NCBI GenBank assembly: GCA_027494055.1
Contig: JAOSJO010000023.1
Span: 377,919 to 441,918, forward strand
Reading direction: 5' to 3'
DNA: 64,000 nt
From: Anaerolineae bacterium
GTDB taxonomy: Bacteria; Chloroflexota; Anaerolineae; Aggregatilineales; JAFGMM01
Part shown: positions 45,073 to 64,000 of the stretch, one piece after another
How the letters are laid out: each line of letters starts with the position of its first letter
Numbering within the stretch: the stretch's first letter is position 1
The notes under the pieces: model-generated
Database searches by the model: none
Told to the model about the DNA's origin: nothing
The model's input: the letters and a program-made list of their open reading frames with translations, nothing else
Position numbers and translations under genes: made by a program

Positions 45073-46101
45073 ATGGAGAAGATTCGCGTCGGATTGGTGG
45101 GGCTGGCCCAGGGCTGGTACGCCACGCTCTATTCGCGGGCCTGCGCGCAGATGCGCGACGTGGCGTTCGTCGGCGTGTGCGACCTCGGCGCTTCCGAGGC
45201 ATACGTCCAGGCCTGCGCCGAGACCAGCGCCGCCGCGTTCGCGGCGGAGTTGGGCGTGCCCCTGGTCCACGACTTTGACGCGCTGCTCGCCCACGAGCCG
45301 CACGCGCTCATCATCACGAGCGAGACCGCCGACCACCATCGCCACGCCGTGCCCGCCATCGAGGCCGGCATCCACGTGTTCATCGGCAAGCCCATGACCA
45401 CCTCCCTCGCCGCCGCGCAGGCCATCGTGGCGGCGGCGGAGAGGCAGCCGTCGGTCGTCGTCCTGCCGGGCGAGCCGGCGCGCTACGAAGACGGCATGAT
45501 CGAGGCGCGCGCGCGCCTCCAGGAGGGGCAGATTGGCCGCCCGCTGGTGGCGCACGTGTATGTCAACCACCTGGCGATGACAAACCACGCCTGGGAGATG
45601 AGCGCCGCGCGCAGCGGCAGCCCGCTCATCGAGTTCGGCAGCTACCCGGCTGACCTTGCCGAATGGATCGTCGGCGCGCCGATCACGTCGGTGTACGCCC
45701 TTGCGGACAACTTCTGCACGCCCCAGATCGAAGGGCCGGACAACGTGAAGATGCTCTGCCGCCACCAGAACGGCGCGATCAGCACGCTGGGTGTGTATTC
45801 CTCCATCACCTGGGATTATCCCTTCCTGGGCCTGGAGATCATCGGGGAGCGCGGTTGCCTCCGCGCCGATTACCACAACTACCCGGTCTACGTCCACCGG
45901 AAAGACGCGGTCCTGGTTTCGAGTCCGCGCTACTCACCTATGAACGCGCGCGAGATCGAGCACTTCATGGACTGCGTGCGCGGCAGGGCAACGCCCGTCA
46001 TTACGCCGCAGGAGTACGTGAGCACCATCCGGGTGCTGGAGGCGGCGCAACGGAGCATCGCGCACGGGCAGCCGGTTGAGATTGCGCGCGGGGAGACATG
46101 A
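45073..46101 (+). CDS. Gfo/Idh/MocA-family oxidoreductase
   Basis: Intact 342-aa ORF. It has an N-terminal Rossmann segment (IRVGLVGLAQGWYA) and EKP-like FIGKPMT. Confidence 0.9.
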   Translation: MEKIRVGLVGLAQGWYATLYSRACAQMRDVAFVGVCDLGASEAYVQACAETSAAAFAAELGVPLVHDFDALLAHEPHALIITSETADHHRHAVPAIEAGIHVFIGKPMTTSLAAAQAIVAAAERQPSVVVLPGEPARYEDGMIEARARLQEGQIGRPLVAHVYVNHLAMTNHAWEMSAARSGSPLIEFGSYPADLAEWIVGAPITSVYALADNFCTPQIEGPDNVKMLCRHQNGAISTLGVYSSITWDYPFLGLEIIGERGCLRADYHNYPVYVHRKDAVLVSSPRYSPMNAREIEHFMDCVRGRATPVITPQEYVSTIRVLEAAQRSIAHGQPVEIARGET

Positions 46102-47144: not shown

Positions 47145-47271
47145 AACCGCTGCGCTGCCCCTCGCTCGCGAAGGTGCAAGGAGGAGCCTATCGGGAAGAT
47201 GCATGAAAGCCCATTATTTTCCGCAGTGTCGTTTGTTCTCTGCGCCCAGACACATTAAGGAGAGAGAGGAA

Positions 47272-48550
47272 ATGCGCAAGCTTACGGCGATTCTCCTGGC
47301 TCTGACCCTGGTCATTGGAGCAGCGCCTGCCATCGCGCAGGAGGAGCCGATCACCATCAGCTTCTTCCACATGACCTGGCTCGAAGCCGGCCAACAGGCG
47401 CTCGACGAGGCGATTGCCGCGTTCGAGGCCGAAAACCCCAACATCAAGGTTGAGCAGATCATCGTCTCGTGGGGCGAGGCGCACTCCCAGTTCATGACCT
47501 CGATGGCCGCCGGCGTCGCGCCGGACATCGCCATGATGGGCGGCACCTGGCCGGTCGAGTTCCAGAACATGGGGGCGTGGGCGCCGGCGGGCGATTATCT
47601 GCCCGCTGACTTCGCCGACTGGTTCGTCCCCGCTGCCCTGGCGACCATCCAGTATGACGGGGAGCTTTACGGCGCTCCCTGGGAAGGTGGAACGTGGGGC
47701 TTCTTCTACCGCAAGGACCTGTTCGAAGCCGCCGGCCTCGACCCGGAGCAGCCCCCCACGACCTGGGAAGAGATGGTCGAGTTCGGCCAGAAGCTGACGG
47801 TTGACGAGGACGGCGACGGCACCCCCGACCAGTGGGGCCTGGTCTTCCCGGCTGCCGGCTGGGAGCCGGACGACTACTTCCTGCCCATCGCCTGGCAGGT
47901 AGACTGCCCGGTCGCCGAGCTGACGGACGTCGGCTGGGTCTCGGCCTTCGACCAGCCGAACTGCCTGGAGGCCCTGCAGTTCTACTATGACCTCGTGCAC
48001 ACCTACAAGATCACGCCCACCGACATCGTAGGCTACACCTGGGAGGAGGCCAAGAACGCCTTCGCCTTTGGCGACGCCGCGATGATGTACAACGGCGGTT
48101 GGGCGGCGGGCACGCTGCCCGCGGAGATCGAGGGGATGTGGGGGGACCGCCCTCAACCCCGCCGGCCCGCGCGGGACCATCGCCGCGATGGGGTATCCCA
48201 ACACGCTCATGGTCACCGCCCAGTCTGACCACCCGGCGGAGGCCTACCAGTTCCTGGCGTTCCTGCACGAAGGCTTCCCAAGCTGGGCCGACGAGTACGC
48301 CCTGGCCCATGCGTCGCTCAACTGGTCGGCGGGTTACGCCGACCTGGACTTCGCCAAGGACCCGCTCATCGCGCCGCTGGTCGAGGCGATGAACTACAGC
48401 CAGAACCGGCCCTTCGCGCCGCAGTACGAGCAGTTCCGCCAGGGGTACTTCTGCCCTGGCCTGCAGGCGCTTGTCCTCGGCGAGACGACGCCGGAGGCGG
48501 CAGCCGCCGAGTTCGTTGAGGCGTTCAACAAGCTTCACGGCACGCACTAA
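47272..48550 (+). CDS. ABC transporter solute-binding protein (family 1), frameshifted as assembled
   Basis: An ATG at 47272 follows AAGGAGAGAGAGG (MRKLTAILLALTLVIGAAPAIAQEEP). Removing one G from the G6 run 48140-48145 joins EIEGMWG to TALNPAGPRGTIAAMGYPNTLMV... in ORF 48188..48550. Confidence 0.9.
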
Positions 48551-48565
48551 CGCACGCATCGTTCC

Positions 48566-48599
48566 GCCGTAGGGGCACGGAAGGCCGTGCCCCTACGGC
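48566..48599 (+). promoter_or_regulatory. perfect 15-bp GC hairpin immediately after the SBP gene
   Basis: gccgtaggggcacgg (48566-48580), loop aagg, then ccgtgcccctacggc (48585-48599). There is no U-tract. Confidence 0.6.
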
Positions 48600-48751
48600 C
48601 ACGCCGGCGCTTTCGCGCATCCGGCCAACGACAACGCCCGGCCCGCGAGCCTGCGAATGGTGAAGGTACAGCGCTTGTGAAACAAGACCGCGCGACTACA
48701 GCAATCCTATCGACGCCCTCCGCGTCCACCCCAGAGGGCAGACGCGCCATC

Positions 48752-49623
48752 ATGCAGCGGCTCAGCCCTTATCTGCTCATTCTTCCTGCCGCCGCCCTGA
48801 TGGCGATCCTCATTCTCTTCCCGCTGGTGCGCGGGGTGGTGATGAGTTTCACCGAGGTCAATCTGGCAAACCAGGGCAGCATGACGTTCGTCGGCGTGCA
48901 ACAGTACATGAAACTCCCGGACGACCCCGTGTTCTGGCGCGCGCTGGGGAACACGGTGAAGTGGACCCTGGGCGTGGTCGTGTTTCAATACGTGTTCGGG
49001 CTGGGGATTGCGCTGCTGCTCAACGAGCCGATCCCCTTCCGCGGGCTGTTCCGGGGCTGATCCTCGTGCCGTGGGTCGTGCCGTCGGTGGTGGCGGCGCT
49101 GTGCTGGCGCTGGATTTATGCAGGCGAGTACGGCATCCTCAACCACATGCTGCAACAGGTCGGCCTGATCCAGAGGCCGCTCCAGTGGCTATCGACGCCA
49201 GACCTGGCAATGCCGGCCGTCATCGCGGTCGGCATCTGGAAGTGGGTGCCGTTCATGGCGGTGGTGATGCTGGCGGGGTTGCAGTCGATCCCGAAGGAAC
49301 TCTATGAAGCGGCGGAGGTGGACGGCGCGAACATCGTCCAGCGCTTCCGGCAAATCACCATGCCGCACGTGCGGAACCTCAGCCTGATCGCCACGCTGCT
49401 ATCGTTCATCTGGACGTTCAACCACTTCGACATCGTGTACGTCATGACCAAGGGCGGGCCGGCGAACGCCACCCACCTGCTGTCCACCTACTCGTACCTG
49501 TCCGCCTTCGCCTATTTCGATATCGGCTACGCGGCGGCGATGGCGGTGGTCATGTTGGTCGCGCTTACCGTGCTCGCAGTGCCGTATCTGCGGCTCATGC
49601 GCGGCGAGAGCCAGACGGTCTAG
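48752..49623 (+). CDS. carbohydrate ABC transporter permease, frameshifted as assembled
   Basis: It starts MQRLSPYLLILPAAALMAILILFPLVRG.... Adding one G at the G4 run 49053-49056 gives PFRGLFRGLILVPWVVPSVV... in ORF 48961..49623. The start could be the upstream GTG at 48677. Confidence 0.85.
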
Positions 49624-49635
49624 CAGGAGGAAGCC

Positions 49636-50468
49636 ATGCGGCGACGCACGCGAATCCGGCAAGCCATCGTGATGACCCTCCTGACCATTGTGGTGATTGT
49701 GCTGCTCTTCCCCTTCCTGTGGATGTTCTCCACCGCCCTGAAGCCACCGGACGAGGTCTTCACGCCGTCCCCGCGCTGGATCCCGGCCAACCCCACGCTG
49801 GACAACTTCACCCACATCCTCGGCTCAACCGCCTTCCCGCGCTACTTCGCGAACTCGGTGCTGGTCGCGTTCATCACGATGGCGCTGTCGGTGCTCATCA
49901 CGATCTTCGCCGGCTACGCGCTCTCGCGATACAACTTCCGGGGCAAGGGGACGTTCTCGCTGTGGCTGCTCGTCTCGCAGATGTTCCCGCCGATGCTGCT
50001 CATCATCCCGATCTTCGTGCTCATGCTGGAGACGGGCCTCTACAACACCTACGCCTCCCTCATCATCACCTACGGGACCTTTGCGCTCCCGTTCAGCACG
50101 TGGATGATGCGCTCTTATTTCGACACCGTGCCCCCGATCTGGAAGAGGCGGCGATGGTGGACGGGTGCACGCGCCTGCAGGCGCTGGCGCGCGTGGTGCT
50201 GCCCCTCGCCGCGCCGGGGATCGCGACGGTGGCGCTGTTCATCTTCATCCTGGCGTGGCAGGAGTACATGTTCGCCCTCACCCTGACGCGCACCACGGAG
50301 ATGCGCACCCTGCCGGTGGGCATCAGCCTGTTCCTGGGCGAGTATCGCGTGCTGGGGGGGTCGCTCATGGCCGGCTCGGTGGTGGTGACGGTCCCGGTCA
50401 TCCTCCTGTTCGGCTATCTGCAGAGGTACATCGTGCAGGGCCTCACGCTGGGCGCGGTGAAGGGATAG
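49636..50468 (+). CDS. carbohydrate ABC transporter permease, frameshifted as assembled
   Basis: It starts MRRRTRIRQAIVMTLLTIVVIVLLFPFLWMF.... The frame is lost near 50133-50136 (YFDTVP|RDLEEAAMVDGCTRLQALARVVLPLAAP) and continues in ORF 49719..50468. Confidence 0.85.
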
Positions 50469-50476
50469 GCGGGGCG

Positions 50477-51466
50477 ATGCGTGAGCTGCGCGCGGGCGTC
50501 ATCGGGTGCGGGTGGGCCGGGCAGTACCATGCCCAGGCTTACGCCGAGCATCCGCGCGCGCGGCTGGCCGCCGTCTGCGATGTGCGCCCGGAACGCGCGG
50601 AGACGCTGGCCGCGCGGTATGGCTGCCGCGCTTACGCCGCCGCCGAGACGATGCTGGCGCAGGAGAGTCTCGATCTGGTGAGCGTCGCCACGACGACGGA
50701 GACGCACGCCGAGATGGTGGAACGCGGCCTGCACGCCGGCGCGGCGGTGTTCTGCGAGAAACCGCTGGCCCAGGACGTGCGCGCCGCCGAGGCGATGGCC
50801 CGCGCCGCCGGCGCACGGCTCGGCGTCAACTACAACCGGCGCTACGCGGCGGGATACGCCAGGGCCAAAGCGTGGGTCGCTGAGGCAGGACGCATCCACT
50901 ACGTCACCGCCACCCTGGCGCAGAACGTCCCCCTGGCCCGCACCGAAGCGCTGCGCGCCAACCTGCCGAGGGATTTCCTCATTTTCGACGCCGCGTCGCA
51001 CCTGGTCGATCTCTTCCGCTTCCTGGTCGGTGAGCCTGAAACGCTCTGCGCCCAGGCATCGCCGCCCGCGCCGGGCGCGTTCCTGACCGACCTCAGCGTG
51101 AGCCTGCGCTTCGCCAGCGGGTGCGTGGGCAGCCTGGTCTGTAGCTTCGCCGGCCCGGAGTGGGGGCAGCTCCCCATCGAGCGCCTGGAGATCGGCGGCG
51201 CGTCGGAACGGCTGGTCGTGGACAACCTCACCCAGGCGGTATCGTGGTGCGGCTACCAGGACGACGTGATGCGCACGTGGCAGCCGTCCATCTTCGAACC
51301 GACCGGGTACGGACAGAGTATGCTCGCGTCTGTGCACGGCTGGATCGACGCCTGTCTGGCGGGGCAGCCGCCCCCGGTCAGCGGCGACGACGCGCTCCGC
51401 ACCCTTCAGCTCTGCAGCCAGATCGCGGCCTCTGTGGCGGCGGAGACGGCGCAGGGCGCGGGCTAG
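50477..51466 (+). CDS. Gfo/Idh/MocA-family oxidoreductase
   Basis: It has MRELRAGVIGCGWAGQYHAQAY and VFCEKPLA, inside ORF 50165..51466. Confidence 0.85.
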   Translation: MRELRAGVIGCGWAGQYHAQAYAEHPRARLAAVCDVRPERAETLAARYGCRAYAAAETMLAQESLDLVSVATTTETHAEMVERGLHAGAAVFCEKPLAQDVRAAEAMARAAGARLGVNYNRRYAAGYARAKAWVAEAGRIHYVTATLAQNVPLARTEALRANLPRDFLIFDAASHLVDLFRFLVGEPETLCAQASPPAPGAFLTDLSVSLRFASGCVGSLVCSFAGPEWGQLPIERLEIGGASERLVVDNLTQAVSWCGYQDDVMRTWQPSIFEPTGYGQSMLASVHGWIDACLAGQPPPVSGDDALRTLQLCSQIAASVAAETAQGAG

Positions 51467-51549
51467 GCGCGGCGATTGGGAACGCGCATGGGCGGGCGGC
51501 GCGCGCGCCAGAGAACCCGCACGCAGAGCAGATTGGAGTCTTTGCCGGC

Positions 51550-52752
51550 ATGATGATTAGCCAGAGAACTCTCGCCGAAACGCTGGACCTGCTCCACCGA
51601 GACGCCCTCGTTGCGCTGGCGAGCGACCTGATCCGGATTCCGAGCGTCAGCCCGCGAGACACCGCCGACTGCGCGCGGCTGGGGATCGCGCCGGGCGAGA
51701 AGGCCGTCGCCGAGGCGCTGGCCGACCGGTTGCGCAAGGCCGGCGCGGAAGTGACGCTCCAGGAGGTGGTCGCCGACCGGCCCAACCTGCTGGCGCGGCT
51801 GCGCGGCGCTGGCGATGGGCGCGTGCTGTGCTTCAACGGCCACCTGGACACCGTCGGCGCGTTTGACATGGGCGCGCGGGCGTTCCAACCGGAGGTGCGC
51901 GAGGGCCGCCTGTACGGGCGCGGGGCCGCGGACGTGAAAGGCTCGCTGGCCTGCTTCACGCTGGTCCTGGAAACGCTGGCCCGGACCGGGATCACGCTGC
52001 CGAACGACATTGTGTTCACCGCCGTGATCGGCGAAGAGGGGCCGCCAAGCGGCACGGAGTTCCTGATCAAAAGCGGGTTCAGGGCCGACGCCGCCATCGT
52101 CGGCGAGCCGTCAGGGTGCCGCGTGTTTGTCGGCCAGCGCGGCGGCCAGTTCGTGCGCCTGACGACCCACGGCAAGACCGCGCACGGGAGCACACCCCAT
52201 GCCGGCGTCAACGCGATTGAGCACATGGTCCGCCTGCTGGCCGCCATCCCGGAGATGCCCATCTTCAGCGGGGCGGCCAACGCCTACGGCGTCCCGTCGT
52301 TCTGCATCGGCACGATCAACGGCGGGTTGCGGATCAACGTCGTGCCGGACCGGTGCGAAGCCACCATCGATGTCCGGATGCCGCCCGGCATTGGCCCTGA
52401 AGACGTGCTGGCCGGCTTCAGCGCGCAGATGGAGCGGCTGGGCATTGGCGGGGAGGTCGAACCGCTGGAGCCGGGACACCCGGCCTACCTGACCCCTGAG
52501 ACCGCGCCCATCGCGCGGGCGGCAGTCCAGGCCGCGCAGGCGCTGGGGATCGATGCGCGCCCGACCCTCGCCCCCTACTGGTCGGACCTGGCGCACCTGC
52601 ACCGCGCCGGCATCCCGACCCTGATTATCGGGCCGGGAAGCATCCTCCAGGCCCATTCCGCCGACGAGTACGTGCCGGTTGACGACCTCGTAACCTGCGC
52701 GCGCCTCTACCTGTATACCGCGTTGCGCTTCGCCGGGGAGGTGGAGGCATGA
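51550..52752 (+). CDS. M20-family metallopeptidase/deacylase (ArgE/DapE-like)
   Basis: The start is MMISQRTLAETLDLL.... Motifs are FNGHLDTV, GRGAADVKG and VIGEEG. Confidence 0.85.
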   Translation: MMISQRTLAETLDLLHRDALVALASDLIRIPSVSPRDTADCARLGIAPGEKAVAEALADRLRKAGAEVTLQEVVADRPNLLARLRGAGDGRVLCFNGHLDTVGAFDMGARAFQPEVREGRLYGRGAADVKGSLACFTLVLETLARTGITLPNDIVFTAVIGEEGPPSGTEFLIKSGFRADAAIVGEPSGCRVFVGQRGGQFVRLTTHGKTAHGSTPHAGVNAIEHMVRLLAAIPEMPIFSGAANAYGVPSFCIGTINGGLRINVVPDRCEATIDVRMPPGIGPEDVLAGFSAQMERLGIGGEVEPLEPGHPAYLTPETAPIARAAVQAAQALGIDARPTLAPYWSDLAHLHRAGIPTLIIGPGSILQAHSADEYVPVDDLVTCARLYLYTALRFAGEVEA

Positions 52753-53504
52753 CCGGCGGCATCCGGCTCACGCCACAGGTCGCCCTGGTCGGCAGCGGCG
52801 AAATCGGCCTGTCGGAGGCGTGCGATAGCCACGTCTACCTGGTGGACGCCGGCGGCCCCCTGGTCATGGTCGACGCGGGGGCCGGGATCGCGCCGGAGCG
52901 CATCGAGGCGAATATCCGCAGCCTCGGCTATGCGCCGGAGCAGATCACCCACCTGTTGCTCACGCACGGCCACGCCGACCATGCCGGGGGCGCGGCGCAT
53001 TTCAGCGCGCAGTACCTGTCGCTGCGCGTGTGCGCGGGGCGCCTTACGGCCTCTTTTCTGGGCGCGGGCGATGAACACGCCATTGCGCTGGACGCGGCGC
53101 GCAGCGCCGGCGTCTACCCGCCAGACTACCGCCTGCGCCCGGTGGCGGTTGCGCACGCGCTGCGCGACGGCGAGCGCCTCCAGATCGGCGGCTGCACGGT
53201 CCAGGTGATCGAGACCCCCGGCCACAGCGCCGACTCGGTCTGCTATCGCGTCGCGTTTGCGGACGGCGCGGCGCTTTTCTGCGGCGACACGCTGTTTGCG
53301 AGCGGCCTCGTGCCGCTGCTCAACACGCACGACTCCGACCTGGCCGCGTACCGCCGCAGCCTGGAAAGCCTGGCTGCGCGGGAGGTCGATGGGCTGTACC
53401 CCGGCCATGGGCTTTTCATGGTTGGCGGCGGCAGCGCCGCGATCCGGCAGCAGCACGAACGGCTGCAAGGTTCGATCTACCTGCCGCCTGTACTGAATGG
53501 ATAG
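52749..53504 (+). CDS. MBL-fold metallo-hydrolase
   Basis: Intact 251-aa ORF with a 4-nt overlap on the previous gene. It has the HxHxDH motif LLLTHGHADHAGG. Confidence 0.85.
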   Translation: MTGGIRLTPQVALVGSGEIGLSEACDSHVYLVDAGGPLVMVDAGAGIAPERIEANIRSLGYAPEQITHLLLTHGHADHAGGAAHFSAQYLSLRVCAGRLTASFLGAGDEHAIALDAARSAGVYPPDYRLRPVAVAHALRDGERLQIGGCTVQVIETPGHSADSVCYRVAFADGAALFCGDTLFASGLVPLLNTHDSDLAAYRRSLESLAAREVDGLYPGHGLFMVGGGSAAIRQQHERLQGSIYLPPVLNG

Positions 53505-53522
53505 TTACGAGGGGAGCGCACC

Positions 53523-54146
53523 ATGAGCAAAGAAACCATACGGCTGAAGTTTGACCCTGCCGAAATACCCGAAGACGACTCTTACCCGGTCTTCGTACCC
53601 AGCGTGGCGGTGATGATCAGCTTTGCCTCACCTGAAGGCCGCGCCAGCATCACGCCGATTGTCGCCTGGTCCATCGTATCGCGTTTCCCGTTCATGGCCG
53701 TGATCGCCCTGTGCCACGGCCACTACACCGACAATTACTTTCCGCGCTACTCGAACCGCACCATCCGCGAGGCCGGCGAGTTCGTGTTGAACATTCCGCA
53801 CGACGGCCTGCGCGACGCGATCTCCAAGACCGGCGATGTCAGCGGCAACGACCCCACCGTGGACAAGTTCGCCTATGCCGGGCTGACCCCTGGGCCGGCG
53901 CAGACGGTGAAGTGCCCGATTATCGTGGAATGCCCGATCAATCTCGAATGCAAGGTGACGTCGATTGTCCGCACCGGCAGCCACGACCTCTTCATCGCCG
54001 AGGTGACGGCAATCCAGCACGACCCGATCCTGAGCCGCGACATCCAGGACGACATGATGGTTGTGAAGATGCTCCTCAAGGACGCGGAGACGGGCGCAAC
54101 GCAAGAACGGCAGATGCTCTGGCGCACGCTGCCCACGTTCTCCTGA
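53523..54146 (+). CDS. flavin-reductase-like (FMN-binding split-barrel) protein
   Basis: Intact 207-aa ORF. Its size and the segments ITPIVAWSIVSRFPFMAVIAL...HDLFIAEV resemble flavin reductase domains. The call is tentative. Confidence 0.6.
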   Translation: MSKETIRLKFDPAEIPEDDSYPVFVPSVAVMISFASPEGRASITPIVAWSIVSRFPFMAVIALCHGHYTDNYFPRYSNRTIREAGEFVLNIPHDGLRDAISKTGDVSGNDPTVDKFAYAGLTPGPAQTVKCPIIVECPINLECKVTSIVRTGSHDLFIAEVTAIQHDPILSRDIQDDMMVVKMLLKDAETGATQERQMLWRTLPTFS

Positions 54147-54182
54147 GAGGCGTCGCGTCGCCAGGCGTCCCCATCACAGGTT

Positions 54183-55355
54183 GTGAGCACGATGCGCAAG
54201 GACCTGAACCCAACCGTGGTGCAGATGCCGCGATCCGGCATCCGGGTGGTGCTCGACGCGGCAAACAAGCTGCCGGATGTCGTCTACCACCTCGAAATCG
54301 GCCAGCCTGACCTGCCGACCCCGCCGCACATCGTGGAAGCGGCAGTGGAGGCGGCCCGGCAGGGCTACACCGGATACACGCCGAACGCCGGCTTCCCCAG
54401 CCTGCGCCAGGCGTTCGCCGCGCGCCTGAACGCAGAACGCGGGCTGCGCGTGGACCCGGAGCAGGTCGTCGTGACGGTCGGGGCGATGGGGGCGATCTTC
54501 TCCGCGCTGTGCGCCACGGTCGCGCCGGGCGACGAGGTCCTGATCCCTGACCCCGGCTACCCGAACTACCTGATGCCCGTCAACCTGTTGGGCGCGCGAA
54601 GCGTCCGGTACCCGCTCGACGCCAGGGCCGGGTTCGCCTTCCGCGCAGCGGCGATTCAGGAGCGGATCGGGCCGCGCACGAAGGCCATCATCATCAACAG
54701 CCCGTCAAACCCAACCGGCACGATGATCGACCGGGCAGAGCTTGAGGCCGTCGTCGCGCTGGTGCAGCGACACGGGCTGTACCTCATCTCGGATGAGGCC
54801 TACGCGCACGTGTGCTTCGGCGGGACGCACCTCACGCCGCTGAGTTACGCGGCCGGCGAGCACGTCATCGCCGTCTATAGCTGCTCGAAGACGTACTCGA
54901 TGACGGGCTGGCGCGTGGGGTTTGCCGTGAGCGCGCCGGAGATCGCCACTCTGTTGTCGAAGTTGCAGGAAGCCTACGTGGCCTGCGCGCCGAGCGTGTC
55001 GCAGAAAGCGGCGGAGGCCGCCCTGCGCGGCCCGCAGGATTGCGTCGAGGCGATGGCGAAGACGTACTGGCGTCGCCGGGACCTGGCGCTGGCGCTGTGC
55101 GCGGAGTACGGGCTGGCGGCTGTGCCGCCACAGGGCGCTTTCTACCTGCTCATCGCGCTGCCGGCCCCGGAGGGCGCGGACTCAACCGCATACGCCCTGC
55201 GCCTGCTGGCCGAGAAGCACGTCGCGGTTGCCCCAGGACGGACGTTCGGTCCGAGCGGCGAGGGGTACATCCGCATCGCCCTCTGCGCGCCTGAGAGCGC
55301 CATTCGCGAAGGTCTGGAGCGCATCGCCGCGTTCCAGCGGCAAACGTCCGGGTGA
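54183..55355 (+). CDS. class I/II pyridoxal-phosphate-dependent aminotransferase
   Basis: Intact 390-aa ORF with the PLP-lysine motif SCSKTYSMTGWRVGF and NPTG. The start is the GTG at 54183 or the ATG at 54192. Confidence 0.9.
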   Translation: MSTMRKDLNPTVVQMPRSGIRVVLDAANKLPDVVYHLEIGQPDLPTPPHIVEAAVEAARQGYTGYTPNAGFPSLRQAFAARLNAERGLRVDPEQVVVTVGAMGAIFSALCATVAPGDEVLIPDPGYPNYLMPVNLLGARSVRYPLDARAGFAFRAAAIQERIGPRTKAIIINSPSNPTGTMIDRAELEAVVALVQRHGLYLISDEAYAHVCFGGTHLTPLSYAAGEHVIAVYSCSKTYSMTGWRVGFAVSAPEIATLLSKLQEAYVACAPSVSQKAAEAALRGPQDCVEAMAKTYWRRRDLALALCAEYGLAAVPPQGAFYLLIALPAPEGADSTAYALRLLAEKHVAVAPGRTFGPSGEGYIRIALCAPESAIREGLERIAAFQRQTSG

Positions 55356-55387
55356 GATTCACCACCCTCCGCATCCCAAACATTGAC

Positions 55388-55402
55388 AACGCGCTGACGT
55401 TT
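55388..55402 (+). repeat. 15-bp direct repeat, left copy (aacgcgctgacgttt)
   Basis: Exact match to 58283-58297. It lies 24 nt beyond the WD40 gene stop. Confidence 0.9.
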
Positions 55403-55426
55403 GGCCGTAGACTGATGACCTTCCCG

Positions 55427-58215
55427 TTAGCGGCGATTCCCAGGGCACCCCGGCGGTTCGCTAGCTTGGTTGCGCGGATAGCTGGCGGAGCGCATCGTGG
55501 TCCTACTGACAATCGGAGGTAAACCCTCCGGGCATGTCAGATCGTCGGTCAGAAACCGGCGATCCACAGCCGCTCGTAGCTGGGATACGGGTTGGCGTTT
55601 TCGTGCCAAACCTGATACCACGACCCGTCGGCATTCTGGCCGATCAGGATTAGCTCCTCGCCTTCGACGGCGGCCCTGATGTACGAGTTGTCGGCGTCGG
55701 GCGCGTCCCGGAGTTAGCCCGCTTGCGGCATTGGTCGTCGCCGTGCAGGACATATCCGTCACGCGCCAGAGCCGCACGTGCCGTCGTCGCCTCCCTGACC
55801 AGATATTCACCATCAGGCGACCAGTCTATCGAGTTCACCCAACTGGTGTGGCCGACCAGAGTGGCTAGCCGCTCGCCCGTGAGTGCGTCCCAGACGTAAA
55901 TCATGTCATGAAAGCCACCAGCCACGCGCATCCCATCCGGCGACCACATCGCATCATTGCCCTCAAACTCTATGAGAAGCTGACCGCTGACGGCATCCCA
56001 AAAGCGGAGGCTACGGTAATAGCCTCCAGTAGCGAGGCGCTCGCCATCCGGCAGCCACGCCACCCAGCCCCCGTCATTCAGCTGCACCTCAAACTCGTTA
56101 GCTGCTCGCCACTAATCGTGCTCCAGATACGCACCATAATCCTGCCATCAACGGAACCGACGCCCGCGAGGCGCGTCCCATCCGGCGACCAAGCCAGGCT
56201 TCTTTCACAGAAACCCCAATCGCAGTCGAACACGGCAAGCTGCGCCCCGCTGACCACGTCCCAAATAAACACCTTGTCGTCAGTTCCGGCGCTTGCCAGG
56301 CGCGTCCCATCCGGCGACCACCACGCGGATGACCAGAAAGCGTCGGTGTGGCCTTTTAACACGGCGAGCTTGTCGCCAGTCGCCACGTCCCAAACAACGA
56401 GGTCGAAGCCCTCCGCATACGCAAAAACCGCCCGATGGCCGGAGGCAGCCCAGGCGCTTTCACCGCCTTCATGGTCGGAAAAAGCCAGCGTCCATGTGAC
56501 CGGGTTGTAATAACTCCCCAAAGAGGTCATCCGTCAGGACACCCAGTTGCTCCCACTACTGGTATCCCAGACGAATACCGCGTCATCGAAAATCACGTTT
56601 CCGCCAACCGCCAAACGTGTTCCATCGGGTGACCATTTCATCGCAGTGGCCTGCGCTCCTGGGTTGAGAGCGGAAGCCGTCGCCCAGTGGCGGCATCCCA
56701 GATATAGACCGTGTCGTGTTCGTCCCAAACCACGCCCGCCAGACGCGATCCGTCCGGTGACCACGACACCCACTCGACCTCTTCGTCGAAGCTGTCTATA
56801 ACTGCCGGCAATGGAGCGATGGCGCTGCCGCCGTTGGCGTCGGGGTTGCAGTTTGAGCGGGGATGGCCGGGCGTCCTTGTGGTGACGGGCGTAGGTGTGG
56901 TGTGACCGTCGGTGCGGCGGTGACGCCGCTACCTGCACCGGCGTCACGGGCGTGACCGTCCAGGCCGCCTCGACATCGGTGATGACGGGCAGGGCGACGC
57001 CATCAGGACAGGTCAGCGCGTCGACCAGGCTGGCTGCAATCCAGGGCCTGGGTATCCCGCTCAGGTTACGGTGCCAGAGTTGAACCCATTCTCCGGCAGC
57101 ATCCTGCCCCGCCACGACCACCAGCATCCCCGCCCCATGGGTCCATCTTCGCGTAATCCCCGCCGGGGAGCGCAGATTTGCGTTCGTGTTGACGACCGCT
57201 GTACAGAGATTGCTCCCCACATTCCAGAGCAGGACAACGCCGTCCTGGGTTCCGAGGGCTAAGCGCGCGCTGTCGGGCGACCAGGCCAGCGCATTCGCCC
57301 TGCCGCATGGCCTATCGGAATGGACGATGGTTCCCAGGCGGACGTATCCCAATAATGCACCGCACCAACGCCACCGCTCGCAAGGTACGCGCCATCGGTG
57401 ACCAGGCCATCCCGCCATAAAGCTCTCCAGACGGACACTCTAGAGCGGCCAATTCCCGACCGTCGATGACATCCCAAACGTAAATACACTCCTCCACCCG
57501 ATCGCCACATTCACGCCGCCAGAGGACCAGGCGACCCTATCAATCCCGGATACACAACAATCGACCTGGACGAAGCCGATGCTGTCCCAGAGGCTCAACC
57601 AGTTCGATGTGTCCCCATACACCCAATCATTCCCATCCCAGCAGATCACGCGAGGCCCCTCTTCCCACCAACTTACATCACCCATGTTCTCACAATACTG
57701 CCACTCGTACTCGCGCACCTCCTGTGCCACGTCCCAGACATTCATATAGTTCCGATAATCCAGCGTGACAACGTGGTGCTGTCAGGCGACCAAAACACCT
57801 GGGAGATACCGCGCCAGCGGGAACGATCCGTCAGCGCGGTCAGTTGGACGCCCGGCATGGCGACGTCCCAAATGCGTACGTCCTCGTCTTCTATGCCGCC
57901 AGTCGCCAAGGCGTCCCATCGGGCGACCACGCCACCGAGACCGCACCGTAGCTGTGAGCTTTCCAGGCGGCAAGGTGTTCGCCGCTGGCGGCGTCCCAGA
58001 GATGCACGGTCCCATCGCTGCCGCCGCTCGCCAGTTGTGTCCCATCCGGCGACCACACCACAGAGGTGACCTCGCCCACATGCCCTTCCAACACAACCGG
58101 CAGATCGATGGACGTTTGCGCCTCGGCGGTAGGGCGCACCACCCTCAAGTGAGAAAACGAAAACGGCCACAAGGACTATAACCAGGGCACGCAATCCCTT
58201 ATTTATGCGCATCAT
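55427..58215 (-). pseudogene. WD40-repeat protein with two SH3b-like domains and an N-terminal membrane anchor, heavily frame-disrupted as assembled
   Basis: GGAGG precedes ATGATG at 58215 ([21 protein letters not shown]). At least twelve minus-strand ORF fragments then each carry WSPDG..LA.GG...V..WD repeats (for example 57891..58172, 57440..57745, 56078..56530 and 55650..56087). Two SH3b-like segments each end in W-I-A-x-x-L-x-D-x-LTCP-x-G (about 57000-57200 and 55500-55700). Confidence 0.75.
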
Positions 58216-58253
58216 TTCACAACCTCCTTTCTCATTATACTTGAAAAATGGCT

Positions 58254-58282
58254 TTGAAAAGCCTCCCGCGCTGCACTATAAT
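58254..58282 (+). promoter_or_regulatory. sigma70-type promoter upstream of alaS
   Basis: TTGAAA (58254-58259), a 17-nt spacer, then TATAAT (58277-58282). The alaS ATG is at 58326. Confidence 0.6.
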
Positions 58283-58297
58283 AACGCGCTGACGTTT
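58283..58297 (+). repeat. 15-bp direct repeat, right copy (aacgcgctgacgttt)
   Basis: Exact match to 55388-55402. It starts at the base after the alaS -10 box. Confidence 0.9.
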
Positions 58298-58325
58298 AAC
58301 CCTGAGTCCGAAAGCGAATCACGCG

Positions 58326-61016
58326 ATGAAGCAGATGACCAGTGCAGAAGCGCGCGAGGCGTTTCTGAGTTTCTTTGAAGAGATGGGGCACAAGCGGGTG
58401 GCGTCGTCGTCCCTGGTGCCGGGCAACGACCCAACCCTGCTGTTCACCAACGCCGGCATGGTCCAGTTCAAGGATGTGTTCCTCGGCACGGACAATCGCC
58501 CTTACAAACGCGCCACGACCGCGCAGAAGTGCATGCGCGTGAGCGGCAAGCACAACGACCTGGAGGAGGTCGGCCCCTCGCCCAGGCACCACACGTTCTT
58601 CGAGATGCTGGGCAACTTCAGCTTTGGCGACTACTTCAAGCGCGAGGCGATCCGCTTCGCGTATGACCTGCTGACGATGGTCTACGAGCTGCCGAAAGAG
58701 CGGCTGATCTTCACCGTGCACGACTCGGATGACGAGGCGCACGACATCTGGGTCAATGAAATCGGCGCGGACCCGTCGCAGGTCTACCGCCTGGGCGACA
58801 AAGACAACTTCTGGCAGATGGCCGATGTGGGGCCGTGCGGGCCAACCTCGGAGATTCACTTCGACCTGCACCCGGAACGGGGGCCAGAGGAATTCGACCC
58901 GGACTCGAGCCGGTGGATCGAAATCTGGAACCTGGTGTTCATGCAGTTCAACCAGGACGAGACGGGCGCGCGCCACCCGCTGCCCGCGCCGGGCGTGGAC
59001 ACAGGCATGGGCTTCGAGCGCATTGTGTCGGTGTTGCAGAACAAGGATGTGAACTACGAGACCGACCTGTTCATGCCCATCATCCGCCGCACGCAGGAAC
59101 TCGCCGGGCAGACCGACGCCGCGCGCGACGCGAGCATCGTGCCGTACCGCGTGATCGCGGACCACGTGCGCGCGGCGACGTTCCTGATCGCGGACGGGGT
59201 GACGCCGGGCAACACCGGGCGCAACTACATCACGCGCATGGTGCTGCGGCGCGCGGCGCGCTTCGGGCGCAAGCTCGGCTTCACCGACCCGTTCATGGCA
59301 GAGGTGGCGGAGGTCGTCATCGAGGAGATGGGCGGCCATTACACCGAGCTTGAGGAGAAGCGCGAGGCGATCCGGCGCGCGATCACGCAGGAAGAGGAGC
59401 GCTTCGGGCGCACGCTCGACCGGGGACTGTCCGAACTCGAAGGGATGCTCGACCAGCTTGAGGCGGAGGGCAAGAAACAGCTCTCCGGGGCGCTGGCGTT
59501 CTTCCTCTACTCGACGCTCGGCCTGCCGCTGGAGCTGACGCGCGACGTGGCCGGCGAGCGCGGCTTCACCATCGACGAGGCCGGCTATTACGCGGAGATG
59601 GAACAACACGCCATCGCGAGCGGCGGCGGCAAGGCGATGGGCGAGATTGCGCGCCAGGAGGCGTACAGCGAGGTCCTGGCGGCGCTCAAGGCCGACGGTC
59701 TGCTCGGCGACGCCGGCGTGATCCACAACCCCTACGGCCCGCTCAGCGTCGAAGGCCGCGTGCTCGCCATCATGCGCGATGGGCAGCGCGTGGAGGCGGC
59801 GATCACCGGCGAGCGCGTGGCGGTAGTGCTGCCGCAGACGCCCTTCTACGTGGAGGCCGGCGGCCAGGTCAGCGACACGGGCACGATCAGGCGGCAAGGC
59901 GAGGGCGCGCGCTGGGAGATCGACGTTGAGGACACGCAGCGGCCCGTCGCCGGGCTGGTGGTGCACATCGGCGAGGTGGTCGAAGGGACGCCGCACGTGG
60001 GCGACCTGGCGTGCGCCTCGGTGGACGCGACGCGGCGCTGGGACATCATGCGCAACCACACCGCCACGCACCTGCTGCACAGCCGGCTGCGCGCGGTGCT
60101 GGGGCCGCACGTGCAGCAGGCGGGGTCGCTGGTCGCGCCAGACCGGCTGCGCTTTGACTTCAGCCACGGCGCGGCGCTGACGCCCGCCGAACTGTCGGAA
60201 GTGGCGGCGCAGGTGAACGAGGCAATCCTGGCGAACATGCCGGTCGCGCCGATGATCAAGGCGCTGGAGGCGGCGCGCGCCGAGGGCGCGATGGCGCTGT
60301 TCGGCGAGAAGTACGGCGAGGAGGTGCGCACGATCACCGTCGGCGAGCAAACGCACCGCTTCAGCTACGAGCTGTGCGGCGGCACGCACGTCAGCCAGAC
60401 CGCCGAGATCGGGCCGTTCATCATCACGAGCGAGGAGAGCGTGGCGGCGGGCGTGCGCCGCATCGAGGCGGTGACCGGGCGCGGCGCGCTGGCGCTGATG
60501 CGCGAGCGCTTCGAACTGCTTCATAGCATCGCCTCGGCGCTGGAGACGACGCCGGCGCAGATCCACCGGCGGCTGCGGACGCTCAACGAGGTGCTGCAAT
60601 CGTCGCAGAAAGAGGTGGAACGGCTGCGGCGGCAGTTGGCGCGCGCGCAGTTCGAGCGGCTGCTGGCGGAGCACGTCGAGCAGGTGGACGGCGTGCGCGT
60701 GGTCTCGGCGCACGTGGAAGTGGCGAGCATGGCGGTGCTGCGCGAGATGGGCGACTGGTTCCGCGACCGGGTGGAAGGCGGCGTGATGGTGCTCGGCACC
60801 GTGACGGACGACAGGCCGCAGTTGCTCGCCGCCGTGACCGACGACCTGGTCAAGCGCGGGATCAAAGCCGGCGACCTGGTGAAGCAGGTGGCGCAGGTGG
60901 TGGGCGGCGGCGGAGGTGGCCGCCCGCAACTGGCGACCGCCGGGGGTCGCGACGCCGGCAAGCTCGACGAGGCGCTGGCGCAGGTGGCAGGGTTGGTGCG
61001 CCAGGCGCTGAAATAG
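58326..61016 (+). CDS. alaS: alanine--tRNA ligase
   Basis: Intact 896-aa ORF with FTNAGMVQFK, KCMRVSGKHNDLEEVG, WNLVFMQF, the editing-domain HTATHLLH and the C-terminal DHHA1-like GGGGGGRPQLATAGG. Confidence 0.98.
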   Translation: MKQMTSAEAREAFLSFFEEMGHKRVASSSLVPGNDPTLLFTNAGMVQFKDVFLGTDNRPYKRATTAQKCMRVSGKHNDLEEVGPSPRHHTFFEMLGNFSFGDYFKREAIRFAYDLLTMVYELPKERLIFTVHDSDDEAHDIWVNEIGADPSQVYRLGDKDNFWQMADVGPCGPTSEIHFDLHPERGPEEFDPDSSRWIEIWNLVFMQFNQDETGARHPLPAPGVDTGMGFERIVSVLQNKDVNYETDLFMPIIRRTQELAGQTDAARDASIVPYRVIADHVRAATFLIADGVTPGNTGRNYITRMVLRRAARFGRKLGFTDPFMAEVAEVVIEEMGGHYTELEEKREAIRRAITQEEERFGRTLDRGLSELEGMLDQLEAEGKKQLSGALAFFLYSTLGLPLELTRDVAGERGFTIDEAGYYAEMEQHAIASGGGKAMGEIARQEAYSEVLAALKADGLLGDAGVIHNPYGPLSVEGRVLAIMRDGQRVEAAITGERVAVVLPQTPFYVEAGGQVSDTGTIRRQGEGARWEIDVEDTQRPVAGLVVHIGEVVEGTPHVGDLACASVDATRRWDIMRNHTATHLLHSRLRAVLGPHVQQAGSLVAPDRLRFDFSHGAALTPAELSEVAAQVNEAILANMPVAPMIKALEAARAEGAMALFGEKYGEEVRTITVGEQTHRFSYELCGGTHVSQTAEIGPFIITSEESVAAGVRRIEAVTGRGALALMRERFELLHSIASALETTPAQIHRRLRTLNEVLQSSQKEVERLRRQLARAQFERLLAEHVEQVDGVRVVSAHVEVASMAVLREMGDWFRDRVEGGVMVLGTVTDDRPQLLAAVTDDLVKRGIKAGDLVKQVAQVVGGGGGGRPQLATAGGRDAGKLDEALAQVAGLVRQALK

Positions 61017-62866: not shown

Positions 62867-62968
62867 GCGTGAGGCCGATGCGGTTGCACAACGCAATAGC
62901 GTGGTCGCTCCTTTCGGTGCTCTTCTGCCGCTACATGTAATCCCATGTTCTGCATCTAGACCACGCGA

Positions 62969-64000
62969 TTATGCAGAACTACCGCCAATGCGGCTTCCCT
63001 GAAGCATCGCGGCATTGGGCGCGCAGCGGGCGCATCTCTGGATGTGGGGCGAGGTCAGGGGGTTGATCCAGTTGACCTGAACGGTGTACTGCAACTGAAA
63101 ACAGCCATTTGGGCAGCCTGTGGTCGGGCCGCTCGTGATGCTCTGCGCGCCTCCCTGGCTACCCCAGGCATCGGCGCTTGAGTGCACCCGCGACGCCGTG
63201 CCCATCGACGTGATGGGCGAACTGCCATAGTAGTCCTCGGCCTGCGTGCCGTTCACGCTGATGATGAGGTTCTGCCCCTCGGTGAGGAGCACGGTGAAGG
63301 ACTGCGCCACAGGCGTCGGAACGCCGAGGTCGACGCCGGTCGCTTCGCTGGTCGGCCAGCGACCCAGCTTCTGGTCCACGGGCTGGCCGGCGACGGTGCG
63401 CGCCTCGACGCGGAAGTCGAGCCACATGTACCCCTGGCCTTCGCTGACGAGCGAGGCGTCGGGGAACTGCTGCACGAAAAGCTGGTTAAACGTCACCTGC
63501 ACGTTCGCCGAGCGCGGCGCGAGCGTGGCGGTGGGCGTCGGGCTGGGCGTCCACGTGGGCGAGATCGGCGGCGGCGCGACTGTCAGGGTAAGGGGTGGGC
63601 GTCGCCGGGGTCTGGCTCGCGAGCGAAGGGTTGAACGGGTCGAGCGGGTCAGGGTCCACGTTGTCCGGGAGGCCGTCGCCGTCGGTGTCCGGGTTCTTGG
63701 GGTTGGTGCCCAGCTCCACCTCCCTGCCGTCGGTCAGGTTGTCGTCGTCCGTGTCCATGTCGAGCGGGTCGGTGTTGAGCGAGTTCACCTCCTGGCCGTC
63801 GGTGAGCGTGTCGCCGTCGGTGTCCGGGTTCTGCGGATTGGTGTTCAGTTCGGCCTCGCGCACGTTCGAGAGGCCGTCGCGGTCGTCGTCGCCCAGGGCG
63901 ATGGCCGTCATCGCGGCGTTTGTCGCCGTGGCGTCCACGTCGGCGAACTGCGTGAGTTCGACGTTGACGCGCGCTTCCTCGGTAAACAGCGTGTTCTGCG
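62969..64000 (-). CDS. secreted protein with thrombospondin-type-3-like calcium-binding repeats, a Pro/Thr linker and an unassigned C-terminal domain. The 5' end lies outside the window and there is one frameshift as assembled.
   Basis: ORF 63486..63938 has repeated DTDGD/DxDxD motifs (NPQNPDTDGDTLTDGQE, NPKNPDTDGDGLPDNVDPDP). After the G4 run 63592-63595 the sequence continues as ...LTLTVAPPPISPTWTPSPTPTATLAPRSANVQVTFNQLFV... into ORF 62969..63502. Confidence 0.8.

What the first reader, a model, noticed from the sequence alone, without database searches (positions are those of the whole stretch)
55388..58297. Lower-GC WD40/SH3b gene bracketed by an exact 15-bp direct repeat in front of alaS
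The 2.8-kb minus-strand gene has three unusual properties.

(a) It is visibly less GC-rich than its surroundings. Single 60-nt lines I counted were about 55% GC inside the gene against about 70% in alaS.

(b) It is flanked by aacgcgctgacgttt at 55388-55402 and 58283-58297. Both copies lie in the short intergenic spacers right at the gene ends. A chance 15-mer match confined to these two spacers (about 70 and 110 nt) is very unlikely.

(c) It carries far more frame breaks than the rest of the window: at least twelve in 2.8 kb. Many are single-base deletions outside long homopolymers.

The right repeat copy begins at the base after the alaS -10 box (TATAAT 58277-58282). The left copy overlaps a TTGACA.

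The encoded protein has an internally duplicated architecture: TM anchor, WD40 repeats, SH3b, Pro/Thr linker, WD40 repeats, SH3b. Both SH3b segments end in W-I-A-x-x-L-x-D-x-LTCP-x-G.

There are two readings. It may be a horizontally inserted cargo gene with a target-site-like duplication that supplied or rewired the alaS promoter. Or the 15-mer may be a shared cis element. No integrase or transposase accompanies it.
Basis: partly seen in the sequence, partly recalled or inferred. Interest (0 to 1): 0.6.

Follow-up and report, generated by a model that had tools for sequence, protein, structure and literature searches.

The report
Strain-specific WD40 gene inserted before alaS
A 2.9-kb piece of foreign-looking DNA carrying one WD40-repeat surface-protein gene sits between an aminotransferase gene and alaS in this Anaerolineae genome but is cleanly absent from a second genome of the same species. 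The 15-bp repeat is a scar of that insertion, not a regulatory element, so this is an ordinary strain-level gene gain with an unusual junction.

Summary
All three observations hold.

- **Repeat.** AACGCGCTGACGTTT occurs exactly twice in the window, at 55388 and 58283.
- **Composition.** The segment between the copies is the most atypical stretch of the window. GC is 61.6% against 67.2%, and GC3 is 0.715 against 0.864±0.034.
- **Frame breaks.** The WD40 gene has at least 15 frame changes in 2.8 kb, against about 1 per 4 kb in the flanks.

The decisive result is an empty site. A second MAG of the same species (GCA_054679365.1, about 96.5% nucleotide identity) reads aminotransferase stop, 31 nt, alaS promoter, one 15-mer, alaS.

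- The extra DNA is window ~55389-58244.
- TTGA is present at both junctions.
- The right 15-mer is the native alaS leader.
- The left 15-mer sits 1 nt inside the left junction. It is a promoter-less second copy of the target.
- The alaS promoter (TTGAAA-17-TATAAT) is native. It is conserved in relatives and in the empty site, so the insert did not supply it.
- There are no terminal inverted repeats, no recombinase gene, and no donor or orthologue found.

Best reading: an illegitimate, microhomology or template-switch type insertion of a foreign single gene. The frame breaks are nearly all -1, with no internal nonsense codon. They are more likely unpolished long-read errors in a strain-variable segment than real decay. 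This was not tested with reads.

The parts
54183..55355 (+). Class I/II aminotransferase gene. It is the last gene of the left synteny block.
   Evidence: Pfam Aminotran_1_2, E = 4e-74. The window is collinear with relative L081 over 44221-55343 at 84% nucleotide identity, and with conspecific L087 up to 55389.
55356..55386 (.). 31-nt spacer after the aminotransferase stop. It is shared with the empty-site allele and ends in the left TTGA (55383-55386).
   Evidence: L087 carries the same spacer with 2 substitutions.
55388..55402 (+). Left copy of AACGCGCTGACGTTT. It lies 1 nt inside the left junction and is absent from the empty site. I read it as a promoter-less second copy of the target.
   Evidence: In alignment A1 the left junction equals the empty-site sequence minus the 36-37 nt promoter core.
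55403..58240 (.). Foreign DNA proper (2838 nt). It is absent from the conspecific genome and from all relatives fetched.
   Evidence: blastn breakpoints are L087 4294 = window 55389 and L087 4291 = window 58245. It has no counterpart in L081-L085. GC is 61.6% and it has the most atypical tetranucleotide signature in the window. There are no terminal inverted repeats.
55427..58215 (-). WD40-repeat gene. Its layout is an N-terminal membrane anchor followed by two collinear halves. Each half is a WD40 propeller plus a small beta module ending in WIAxxLxDxLTCPxG, and a Pro/Thr linker joins the halves. As assembled it is broken by at least 15 frame changes.
   Evidence: Pfam WD40, E = 1e-15 to 1e-19 per fragment. 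Frames. Internal duplication. SH3_3/SH3_16 score only 16-20 bits against a cut-off of 26-27. The structure model is low-confidence and its fold search is not significant.
58241..58244 (.). Right TTGA. Together with 55383-55386 it forms the 4-nt repeat at the two junctions. The empty site has it once, as TCGA.
58245..58282 (+). Native alaS promoter: -35 TTGAAA at 58254-58259, a 17-nt spacer, and -10 TATAAT at 58277-58282. The -35 lies in the near-palindrome GGCTTTGAAAAGCC (58250-58263).
   Evidence: It is the only strong sigma-70 match in 55200-58500, with 11 of 12 positions. It is conserved in L083, L084 and L087. Homology to relatives starts at 58251.
58283..58297 (+). Right copy of AACGCGCTGACGTTT. 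It is the native start of the alaS leader, around the expected transcription start.
   Evidence: It is present once, 15 of 15 positions, in the empty-site allele. 9 of 15 positions are shared with L084 at the same place (my own reading of the sequence returned).
58326..61016 (+). alaS (alanine-tRNA ligase), intact. It is the first gene of the right synteny block, followed by a Na+/H+ exchanger and a P-II-like gene.
   Evidence: Pfam tRNA-synt_2c, E = 3e-189. 100% identical to MCZ7545548.1. Collinear with L084 and L086.

Best explanation
**What it is.** The window carries a strain-specific single-gene insertion.

**Ancestral state (shown).** A conspecific genome displays it directly: the aminotransferase stop codon, a 31-nt spacer ending in T(T/C)GA, the alaS promoter, the 15-mer and then alaS.

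**The insertion (inferred).** In the window's lineage about 2.84 kb of compositionally foreign DNA was joined in by illegitimate recombination, not by a dedicated recombinase. This DNA is one complete gene for a membrane-anchored, internally duplicated WD40 protein, with only about 25 nt of flank on each side.

**The junctions.** The target stretch 'TTGA ... AACGCGCTGACGTTT' now stands on both sides of the foreign DNA. It is complete on the right, as the native promoter plus leader. On the left it lacks the 37-nt promoter core. There are two ways to describe this:
- a template-switch or break-repair event that re-copied nearby target sequence, that is 4-nt microhomology plus a 15-nt templated filler;
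- a 56-nt target duplication followed by loss of the left promoter copy.

Either way the 15-mer pair is a junction scar. It is not an operator and not a recombination core.

**Effect on alaS.** alaS keeps its own promoter. The insertion only separates it from possible read-through out of the aminotransferase gene and places a divergent gene against its -35 region.

**Frame breaks (inferred, not shown).** The dense frame breaks are most likely consensus errors. The assembly is indel-prone, and a segment that part of the population lacks would be poorly covered or poorly polished. On this view the gene is probably intact in the cell.
For: **Empty site.** One contig of GCA_054679365.1 (L087) spans the M20 peptidase, lactamase_B, flavin reductase and aminotransferase genes, the alaS promoter, a single 15-mer and the start of alaS. 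It is 96-97% identical to the window on both sides.

**Breakpoints.** They fall at window 55389 and 58245, with TTGA at both.

**The left junction** equals the empty-site sequence minus the promoter core.

**The right copy is native.** It is present in the empty site and partly conserved in L084. The promoter is conserved in L083, L084 and L087.

**No mobile-element signs.**
- No terminal inverted repeats.
- The repeat flanks are not homologous.
- No Rfam match.
- No integrase or transposase among the genes called next to it.

**Foreign composition**.

**No orthologue or donor found.**
- The best hits among 5.8 billion clusters are generic WD40 proteins at 26-43% identity.
- Nothing in the JGI metagenomes.
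- One weak hit in 1.84 billion representatives for the atypical blades.

**Frame breaks as artefacts.**
- The window has 1-nt indels in G, C and T runs relative to short-read-like relatives. These break ABC-transporter and antiporter genes that are intact in those relatives.
- The WD40 frame changes are mostly -1.
- There is no internal nonsense codon in about 810 codons, although 3.9% of random substitutions would create one.
- All blades keep their WD40 motifs.
Against: **Polarity is inferred from one empty-site genome.** A 2.86-kb deletion between the two TTGA copies in that strain gives the same pair of alleles. Outgroups do not help, because in them the aminotransferase gene and alaS are not neighbours at all.

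**The junctions show no clear priming microhomology** for a templated copy, and one base (C at 55387) is unexplained.

**The artefact reading is untested.**
- No reads, coverage or quality values were available.
- A 20-fold local excess of errors needs an extra assumption, namely low coverage or failed polishing of a minority allele.
- The flank indels lean towards insertions in G runs, whereas the gene's breaks lean towards deletions. The two error spectra are therefore not obviously the same.

**Templated filler DNA** is documented in the papers found here for plant T-DNA integration and yeast break repair (PMC8395108, PMC1976456). I found no bacterial example.
Confidence: 0.6

Rival explanations
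1. The WD40 gene is ancestral at this locus. It is a real, decaying pseudogene in the window's strain. It was removed from the other strain by a 2.86-kb deletion between the two TTGA tetranucleotides.
For: - A deletion between short direct repeats is the simplest single step linking the two alleles.
- A gene broken in one strain and absent from another is the usual course of gene loss.
- There are at least 15 frame changes.
- The region downstream of the aminotransferase gene and the region upstream of alaS are both variable in relatives.
Against: - The deletion would have had to remove the gene, both its short flanks and the left 15-mer. It left no remnant, and its left end fell 1 nt from a copy of a sequence that lies next to its right end.
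- TTGA and the 15-mer occur in the same order on both sides, as expected for a duplicated target.
- There are no nonsense codons and the motifs are well preserved, which does not fit long decay.
- The apparent homology of the insert's left end to the L081 spacer is at background level.
Confidence: 0.2
2. The 15-mer is a shared cis-regulatory element, such as an operator, that acts at both the alaS start and the site downstream of the aminotransferase and WD40 genes.
For: - The right copy covers the expected alaS transcription start.
- The word contains a small inverted repeat, AACG-N6-CGTT.
- From my own knowledge, E. coli AlaRS represses its own gene at a palindrome around the start site.
Against: - This stretch is the least conserved part of the leader in relatives whose promoter is almost identical.
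- There are no further copies in the window with up to 2 mismatches, and none in the 85 loci held when searched.
- The left copy lies between two convergent gene ends. No properly spaced -10 follows the junction-made TTGACA.
- The left copy is absent from the empty-site strain.
- Folding is not significant.
Confidence: 0.04
3. The 15-mer pair is the att-like core of a site-specific integration, carried out by a tyrosine or serine recombinase or a Xer-type system encoded elsewhere.
For: An exact direct repeat brackets a single cargo gene and there is an empty site in a conspecific genome.
Against: - Crossing over between the two 15-mers would give spacer, 15-mer, alaS without the promoter. The observed empty site keeps the 37-nt promoter between the junction and the 15-mer.
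- No recombinase gene is nearby.
- No inverted-repeat arms surround the core.
Confidence: 0.03
4. The segment is an assembly artefact: a low-quality or foreign read stretch wrongly threaded into the contig.
For: - Local indel density is about 20-fold above the flanks.
- Composition is atypical.
- The window also contains a suspicious 921-bp near-identical tandem duplication.
Against: - Both junctions are clean.
- The segment is one complete gene with a start codon, ribosome-binding site and stop codon.
- A false insertion would need two chimeric joins in the same place.
- Joins at 4 and 15 nt do not match assembler overlaps.
Confidence: 0.05

Closest known systems
Illegitimate (microhomology-mediated) integration of foreign DNA in bacteria, including homology-facilitated illegitimate recombination during natural transformation
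   Same: - No recombinase and no inverted repeats.
- A few bases of microhomology (TTGA) at the junctions.
- A clean empty site in a conspecific genome.
- A compositionally foreign cargo.
   Different: - Here a 15-nt copy of nearby target sequence sits at one junction, which is not the usual description of such events.
- No homologous anchor segment from a donor can be shown, because no donor was found.
- The mechanism is inferred from sequence alone.
Filler DNA or templated insertions at end-joining and template-switch junctions (T-DNA integration, polymerase-theta end joining, MMBIR/FoSTeS)
   Same: A short stretch at the junction is an exact copy of sequence lying a few tens of nucleotides away, and it is combined with microhomology (PMC8395108 and PMC1976456 for the eukaryotic cases).
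   Different: - The documented cases retrieved here are eukaryotic.
- Whether this Anaerolineae has Ku/LigD or a comparable pathway was not examined.
- No priming microhomology is evident.
Target-site duplications of insertion sequences and transposons
   Same: Direct repeats of target sequence lie on both sides of inserted DNA, and TTGA is duplicated.
   Different: - No transposase.
- No terminal inverted repeats.
- The 15-mer copies do not both abut the ends.
- If read as one duplication, the duplicated target is 56 nt with an internal 37-nt loss. That is far outside transposase-made duplications.
Strain-variable accessory genes ('flexible genomic islets') seen as structural microdiversity in long-read metagenomes
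   Same: A single-gene presence/absence polymorphism between genomes of about 96.5% identity. Other small indels lie nearby. PMC9426551 describes such microdiversity generally.
   Different: Nothing essential. This is the category it belongs to.

Membership tests
Strain-specific insertion (presence/absence polymorphism) | A conspecific genome with the two flanks directly joined (an empty site) | tested here: met
   L087 (GCA_054679365.1) is 96-97% identical on both sides. It joins window 55389 to 58245 within one contig.
Horizontally acquired DNA | Composition departs from the host genome | tested here: met
   GC is 61.6% against 67.2%, the lowest of 555 windows. Tetranucleotide distance is beyond all 112 controls. 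GC3 z = -4.4.
Horizontally acquired DNA | An identifiable donor or closer homologue in another lineage | tested here: not met
   Only generic WD40 hits at 26-43% identity. Nothing in the JGI metagenomes. One weak hit among 1.84 billion representatives.
Transposable element with target-site duplication | Transposase gene or terminal inverted repeats | tested here: not met
   The only gene in the insert is the WD40 gene. The terminal inverted repeat test scores at background, with 489 of 500 shuffles as good.
Transposable element with target-site duplication | Short direct repeats of target directly abutting both ends | tested here: inconclusive
   TTGA abuts both ends. The 15-mer does not, lying 1 nt from the left junction and 38 nt from the right junction.
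Integrative element with an att core (site-specific recombinase) | Empty site equals left flank plus one core plus right flank, and a recombinase gene is present | tested here: not met
   The empty site keeps 37 nt of promoter between the junction and the 15-mer. No recombinase is among the neighbouring genes.
Integron gene cassette | An attC site (imperfect palindrome with RYYYAAC and GTTRRRY cores) downstream of the ORF, and intI/attI nearby | tested here: not met
   Only 24 nt plus the 15-mer follow the stop codon. By inspection there is no GTTRRRY core. No integrase is present in the window region examined.
Illegitimate insertion with templated junction sequence | Junction microhomology plus a junction stretch identical to nearby target sequence | tested here: met
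   TTGA is at both junctions. 15 of 15 nt at the left junction are identical to 58283-58297, which lies 38 nt from the right junction.
Cis-regulatory operator shared by two sites | Conservation of the motif at the orthologous site in relatives, or further copies in the genome | tested here: not met
   9 of 15 positions or fewer are conserved in the L083 and L084 leaders, while the promoter is conserved. No other copy in the window or in the 85 loci held when searched. The whole genome was not available.
WD40 repeat protein | Pfam WD40 (PF00400) above the gathering score | tested here: met
   57-68 bits against a cut-off of 27 in three fragments.
Bacterial SH3 (SH3b) domain | Pfam SH3_3 or SH3_16 above the gathering score, or an SH3-like fold | tested here: inconclusive
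   - Module 2 scores 16-20 bits against a cut-off of 26-27. Module 1 gives no hit.
- PDB sequence search is not significant.
- The AlphaFold model has pLDDT 61 and four strands.
- Foldseek gives nothing at E <= 0.001.
Pseudogene (real decay) | Frameshifts accompanied by nonsense and missense decay, and confirmed by accurate reads | tested here: inconclusive
   There are at least 15 frameshifts but 0 internal nonsense codons in about 810 codons, and the motifs are intact. Reads were not available.

The most novel reading that the evidence does not exclude
The frame breaks are real and belong to the same event as the junction. On this reading the insert was laid down by error-prone, template-switching repair synthesis, of the break-induced-replication or DinB type. 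Such synthesis could leave both a templated 15-nt copy of nearby sequence and a dense trail of single-base deletions across the 2.8 kb it copied. That would be a natural mutational scar of how a bacterium acquired a gene.
Probability: 0.06. Interest if true: 0.7.

Novelty: new member of a known kind. Interest (0 to 1): 0.3.

Why it matters
It gives a fully resolved example, with both alleles in hand, of how an uncultured Chloroflexota (Anaerolineae) genome gained one surface-protein gene without any mobile-element machinery. Its junction shows re-copied target sequence, which is rarely described for bacteria.

In practice it is also a warning. A cluster of frame breaks confined to a strain-variable segment of a long-read MAG should not be read as a pseudogene until the reads are checked. 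Likewise, an exact repeat next to a housekeeping promoter need not be regulatory.

Tried and rejected
**Searches that did not help**
- Exact-sequence look-ups of the window's AlaS and aminotransferase, with two start choices each, found nothing. P0121 was also not found.
It returned only relatives of 63% identity or less, with no synteny.
- The homologue search with the stitched WD40 protein was swamped by generic WD40 proteins.
- Both metagenome scans found nothing: the WD40 protein and the alaS promoter plus 15-mer as an exact 24-mer.
- Rfam found nothing in the region or in the L081 spacer.

**Ideas tested and dropped**
- Extended homology around the 15-mer: none.
- Terminal inverted repeats: none.
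- Homology of the insert's left end, or of the alaS leader, to the spacer after the aminotransferase gene in L081. It looked suggestive but is at background level when scored against 2100 control tiles.
- A terminator or hairpin role for the left copy: the fold is not better than shuffles, z = -1.3.
- A codon-usage dynamic-programming parse of the frameshifts chose some wrong frames. I replaced it with homologue-guided frames.
- Structure prediction of the small C-terminal module gave a low-confidence model and no meaningful fold match.
Full report
**1. Checking the observation**

The word AACGCGCTGACGTTT occurs exactly twice in the 64-kb window, at 55388-55402 and 58283-58297. This holds even when two mismatches are allowed, and none of 100 shuffles gave two copies.

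The left copy lies in the 71-nt spacer between the aminotransferase stop codon (55355) and the stop codon of the minus-strand gene (55427-55429). The right copy lies in the 110-nt spacer between that gene's start (58215) and the alaS start (58326). It begins right after TATAAT (58277-58282). The sequences on either side of the two copies are unrelated.

One caveat applies. Exact words of 15 nt or more shared by unrelated places are frequent in this GC-rich window. There are about 35 direct and 36 inverted pairs, against 11-14 in Markov simulations. The match itself is therefore unremarkable, and only its position is unusual.

The compositional claim is right in direction and overstated in size.
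- The segment is 61.6% GC against 67.2% for the rest. It is the lowest of 555 equally long windows and the most deviant in tetranucleotide use.
- Third-position GC in the reconstructed reading frames is 0.715 against 0.864±0.034 in 37 other genes.

The frame-break claim is confirmed. Three-frame translation and frame assignment guided by 120 WD40 homologues give at least 15 frame changes, mostly -1. The aminotransferase gene (390 codons) and alaS (896 codons) on either side are intact.

**2. What the gene is**

The fragments hit Pfam WD40 well above threshold. The N-terminus is a hydrophobic anchor.

The two halves of the stitched protein align collinearly at 31% identity, E = 7e-44. Each half ends in W-I-A-x-x-L-x-D-x-L-T-C-P-x-G.

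The 'SH3b' label is not established.
- Only the second module hits SH3_3/SH3_16, and it does so below the curated cut-off.
- A PDB sequence search, a single-sequence AlphaFold model (pLDDT 61) and a Foldseek search added nothing.

The gene has no close relative.
- The best hits among 5.8 billion clusters are generic WD40 proteins at 26-43% identity.
- Nothing turned up in the JGI metagenomes.
- Its atypical blades (57500-57742) have a single weak hit in 1.84 billion representatives.

**3. Where the window comes from and how good the sequence is**

AlaS and the aminotransferase are 100% identical to MCZ7545548.1 and MCZ7545543.1. Both come from a 681-kb contig of an 'Anaerolineae bacterium' MAG.

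Compared with relatives whose genes are intact, the window carries 1-nt indels that break several genes.
- A sugar-binding protein gene and two permease genes are broken at 48148, 49054 and 50136, relative to L081.
- The Na+/H+ exchanger gene is broken at 61412, relative to L086.

These indels are mostly in G, C or T runs. That amounts to about 4 coding frameshifts in 15.7 kb, the pattern expected of residual long-read errors (general background: PMC9262707). The WD40 gene has about 20 times that density.

**4. Synteny and the empty site**

A relative at 84% nucleotide identity (L081, ENA ERZ4756918) is collinear with window 44221-55343. It then continues with unrelated genes.

Relatives with 80-82% identical AlaS have other divergent genes upstream of alaS. 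These are L083 and L084, the latter from GCA_034435135.1. Their homology to the window starts at 58251, the -35 region. The promoter is almost identical in all of them, CTTTGAAAA(g/c)CCC(C)TCCC(C/G)(G/C)(T/G)(G/C)… CACTATAAT. The stretch occupied by the 15-mer is the most diverged part of the leader, with 9 of 15 positions shared with L084 (my own reading of the sequences returned).

The decisive sequence came from the 90% clusters of the two flanking proteins. A second MAG, GCA_054679365.1, is 96-97% identical to the window. One of its contigs (L087) reads: aminotransferase stop, GATTCACCACCCTCCGCATTCCAAACATCGA, AAATGGCTTTGAAAAGCCTCCCGCGCTGCACTATAAT, AACGCGCTGACGTTT, ATAACCC…, then ATG of alaS.

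**5. Anatomy of the junctions**

blastn places the breakpoints at window 55389 and 58245.
- In the window the left junction reads …ACATTGA-C-AACGCGCTGACGTTT-GGCCGTAG….
- The right junction reads …CATTATAC-TTGA-AAAATGGCTTTGAAAAG….
- TTGA therefore stands at both junctions and once (as TCGA) in the empty site.

In the three-way alignment the window's left junction is the empty-site sequence with the 36-37 nt promoter core missing. So the target stretch 'TTGA … 15-mer' is present on both sides of the foreign DNA (55403-58240). It is whole on the right and promoter-less on the left.

The foreign DNA has no terminal inverted repeats. It carries only about 24 nt beyond the stop codon and about 25 nt before the start codon. 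The latter includes AAGGAGG and a TATAAT on the minus strand.

**6. Interpretation**

*Shown:* the presence/absence polymorphism, the junction sequences, the native status of the alaS promoter and of the right 15-mer, and the compositional oddity.

*Inferred:*
- **Polarity is insertion, at about 0.8.** The order-preserving double match (TTGA, then the 15-mer) on both sides is what a duplicated target looks like. A deletion would have had to end 1 nt from that copy and leave no remnant.
- **The mechanism is illegitimate.** It could be a template-switch or end-joining event with a templated filler. It could equally be a 56-nt target duplication followed by loss of the left promoter copy. No bacterial precedent for such filler was found in the papers searched. 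The documented cases are T-DNA integration and yeast break repair (PMC8395108, PMC1976456).
- **The 15-mer is not a recombination core.** Crossing over between the copies would remove the alaS promoter, which the empty site retains.
- **The 15-mer is not a conserved operator**.

**7. The frame breaks**

Real decay producing 15-20 indels should also have produced many substitutions. In this ORF 3.9% of random substitutions would create stop codons. At a substitution-to-indel ratio of 5-10 (my assumption from general knowledge) that predicts 3-6 nonsense codons. None is seen in about 810 codons, and every blade keeps its motifs.

The segment is known to be absent from part of the species, and the assembly is indel-prone. 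The economical reading is a poorly covered or poorly polished minority segment. I put this at about 0.65.

It is not proven. No reads were available, and the flank errors lean towards insertions in G runs while the gene's breaks lean towards deletions.

**8. Verdict**

This is an ordinary strain-level gene gain with an unusual, fully resolved junction. The insertion reading is supported, the promoter-supply idea is refuted, and the cis-element reading is not supported.

Noticed in passing
window 36954-38795: A 921-bp near-identical tandem duplication lies inside a periplasmic binding protein gene (Peripla_BP_4, ORF 37148-38983, minus strand). The two copies differ by 15 substitutions, all of them transitions, and by 3 single-base indels in C runs. 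It could be a real recent duplication or two strain haplotypes concatenated by the assembler.
   Followed up: partly
window 62885-62988: A 104-nt non-coding insertion relative to the conspecific L086. It is flanked by the near-identical direct repeats GCCGATGC and GCCAATGC and contains a hairpin (GTTCTGCAT…ATGCAGAAC). This is a second strain-specific indel with flanking short repeats.
   Followed up: partly
L087 2189-2412 (corresponds to window ~53511, between the lactamase_B and flavin reductase genes): The conspecific genome has a 225-nt insertion that the window lacks. It carries a G/C-rich palindromic element (…CCTCACCCCCC…CTCTCCATCAAATGGAGAGGGGGG…GGGGGGTGAGG…). A similar motif starts locus L085.
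   Followed up: no
window 48148, 49054, 50136, 61412: Single-base indels break a sugar-binding protein gene, two ABC permease genes and the Na+/H+ exchanger gene. All four are intact in relatives L081 and L086. Most of the indels are in G or C runs, consistent with residual long-read errors.
   Followed up: yes
window 58250-58263: The alaS -35 region lies in a near-palindrome, GGCTTTGAAAAGCC. The inserted gene's own TATAAT (58240-58235, minus strand) faces it, but no well-spaced -35 exists for that strand.
   Followed up: partly
window 55343-55355 and L081 11140-11155: Collinearity with the 84%-identical relative L081 ends 12 nt before the aminotransferase stop, and the last residues differ (…AAFQRQTSG against …AEFSGNL). 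In L081, L082, L083 and L084 the aminotransferase gene and alaS are not neighbours. Their adjacency in this species is therefore itself the product of an older rearrangement.
   Followed up: partly
window 55390-55399 and 55423-55433: The core of the left 15-mer (CGCGCTGACG) has an imperfect inverted copy (CGTTAGCGGCG) 23 nt downstream, overlapping the WD40 stop codon. The predicted hairpin (-24.6 kcal/mol) is not better than shuffles, z = -1.3.
   Followed up: yes
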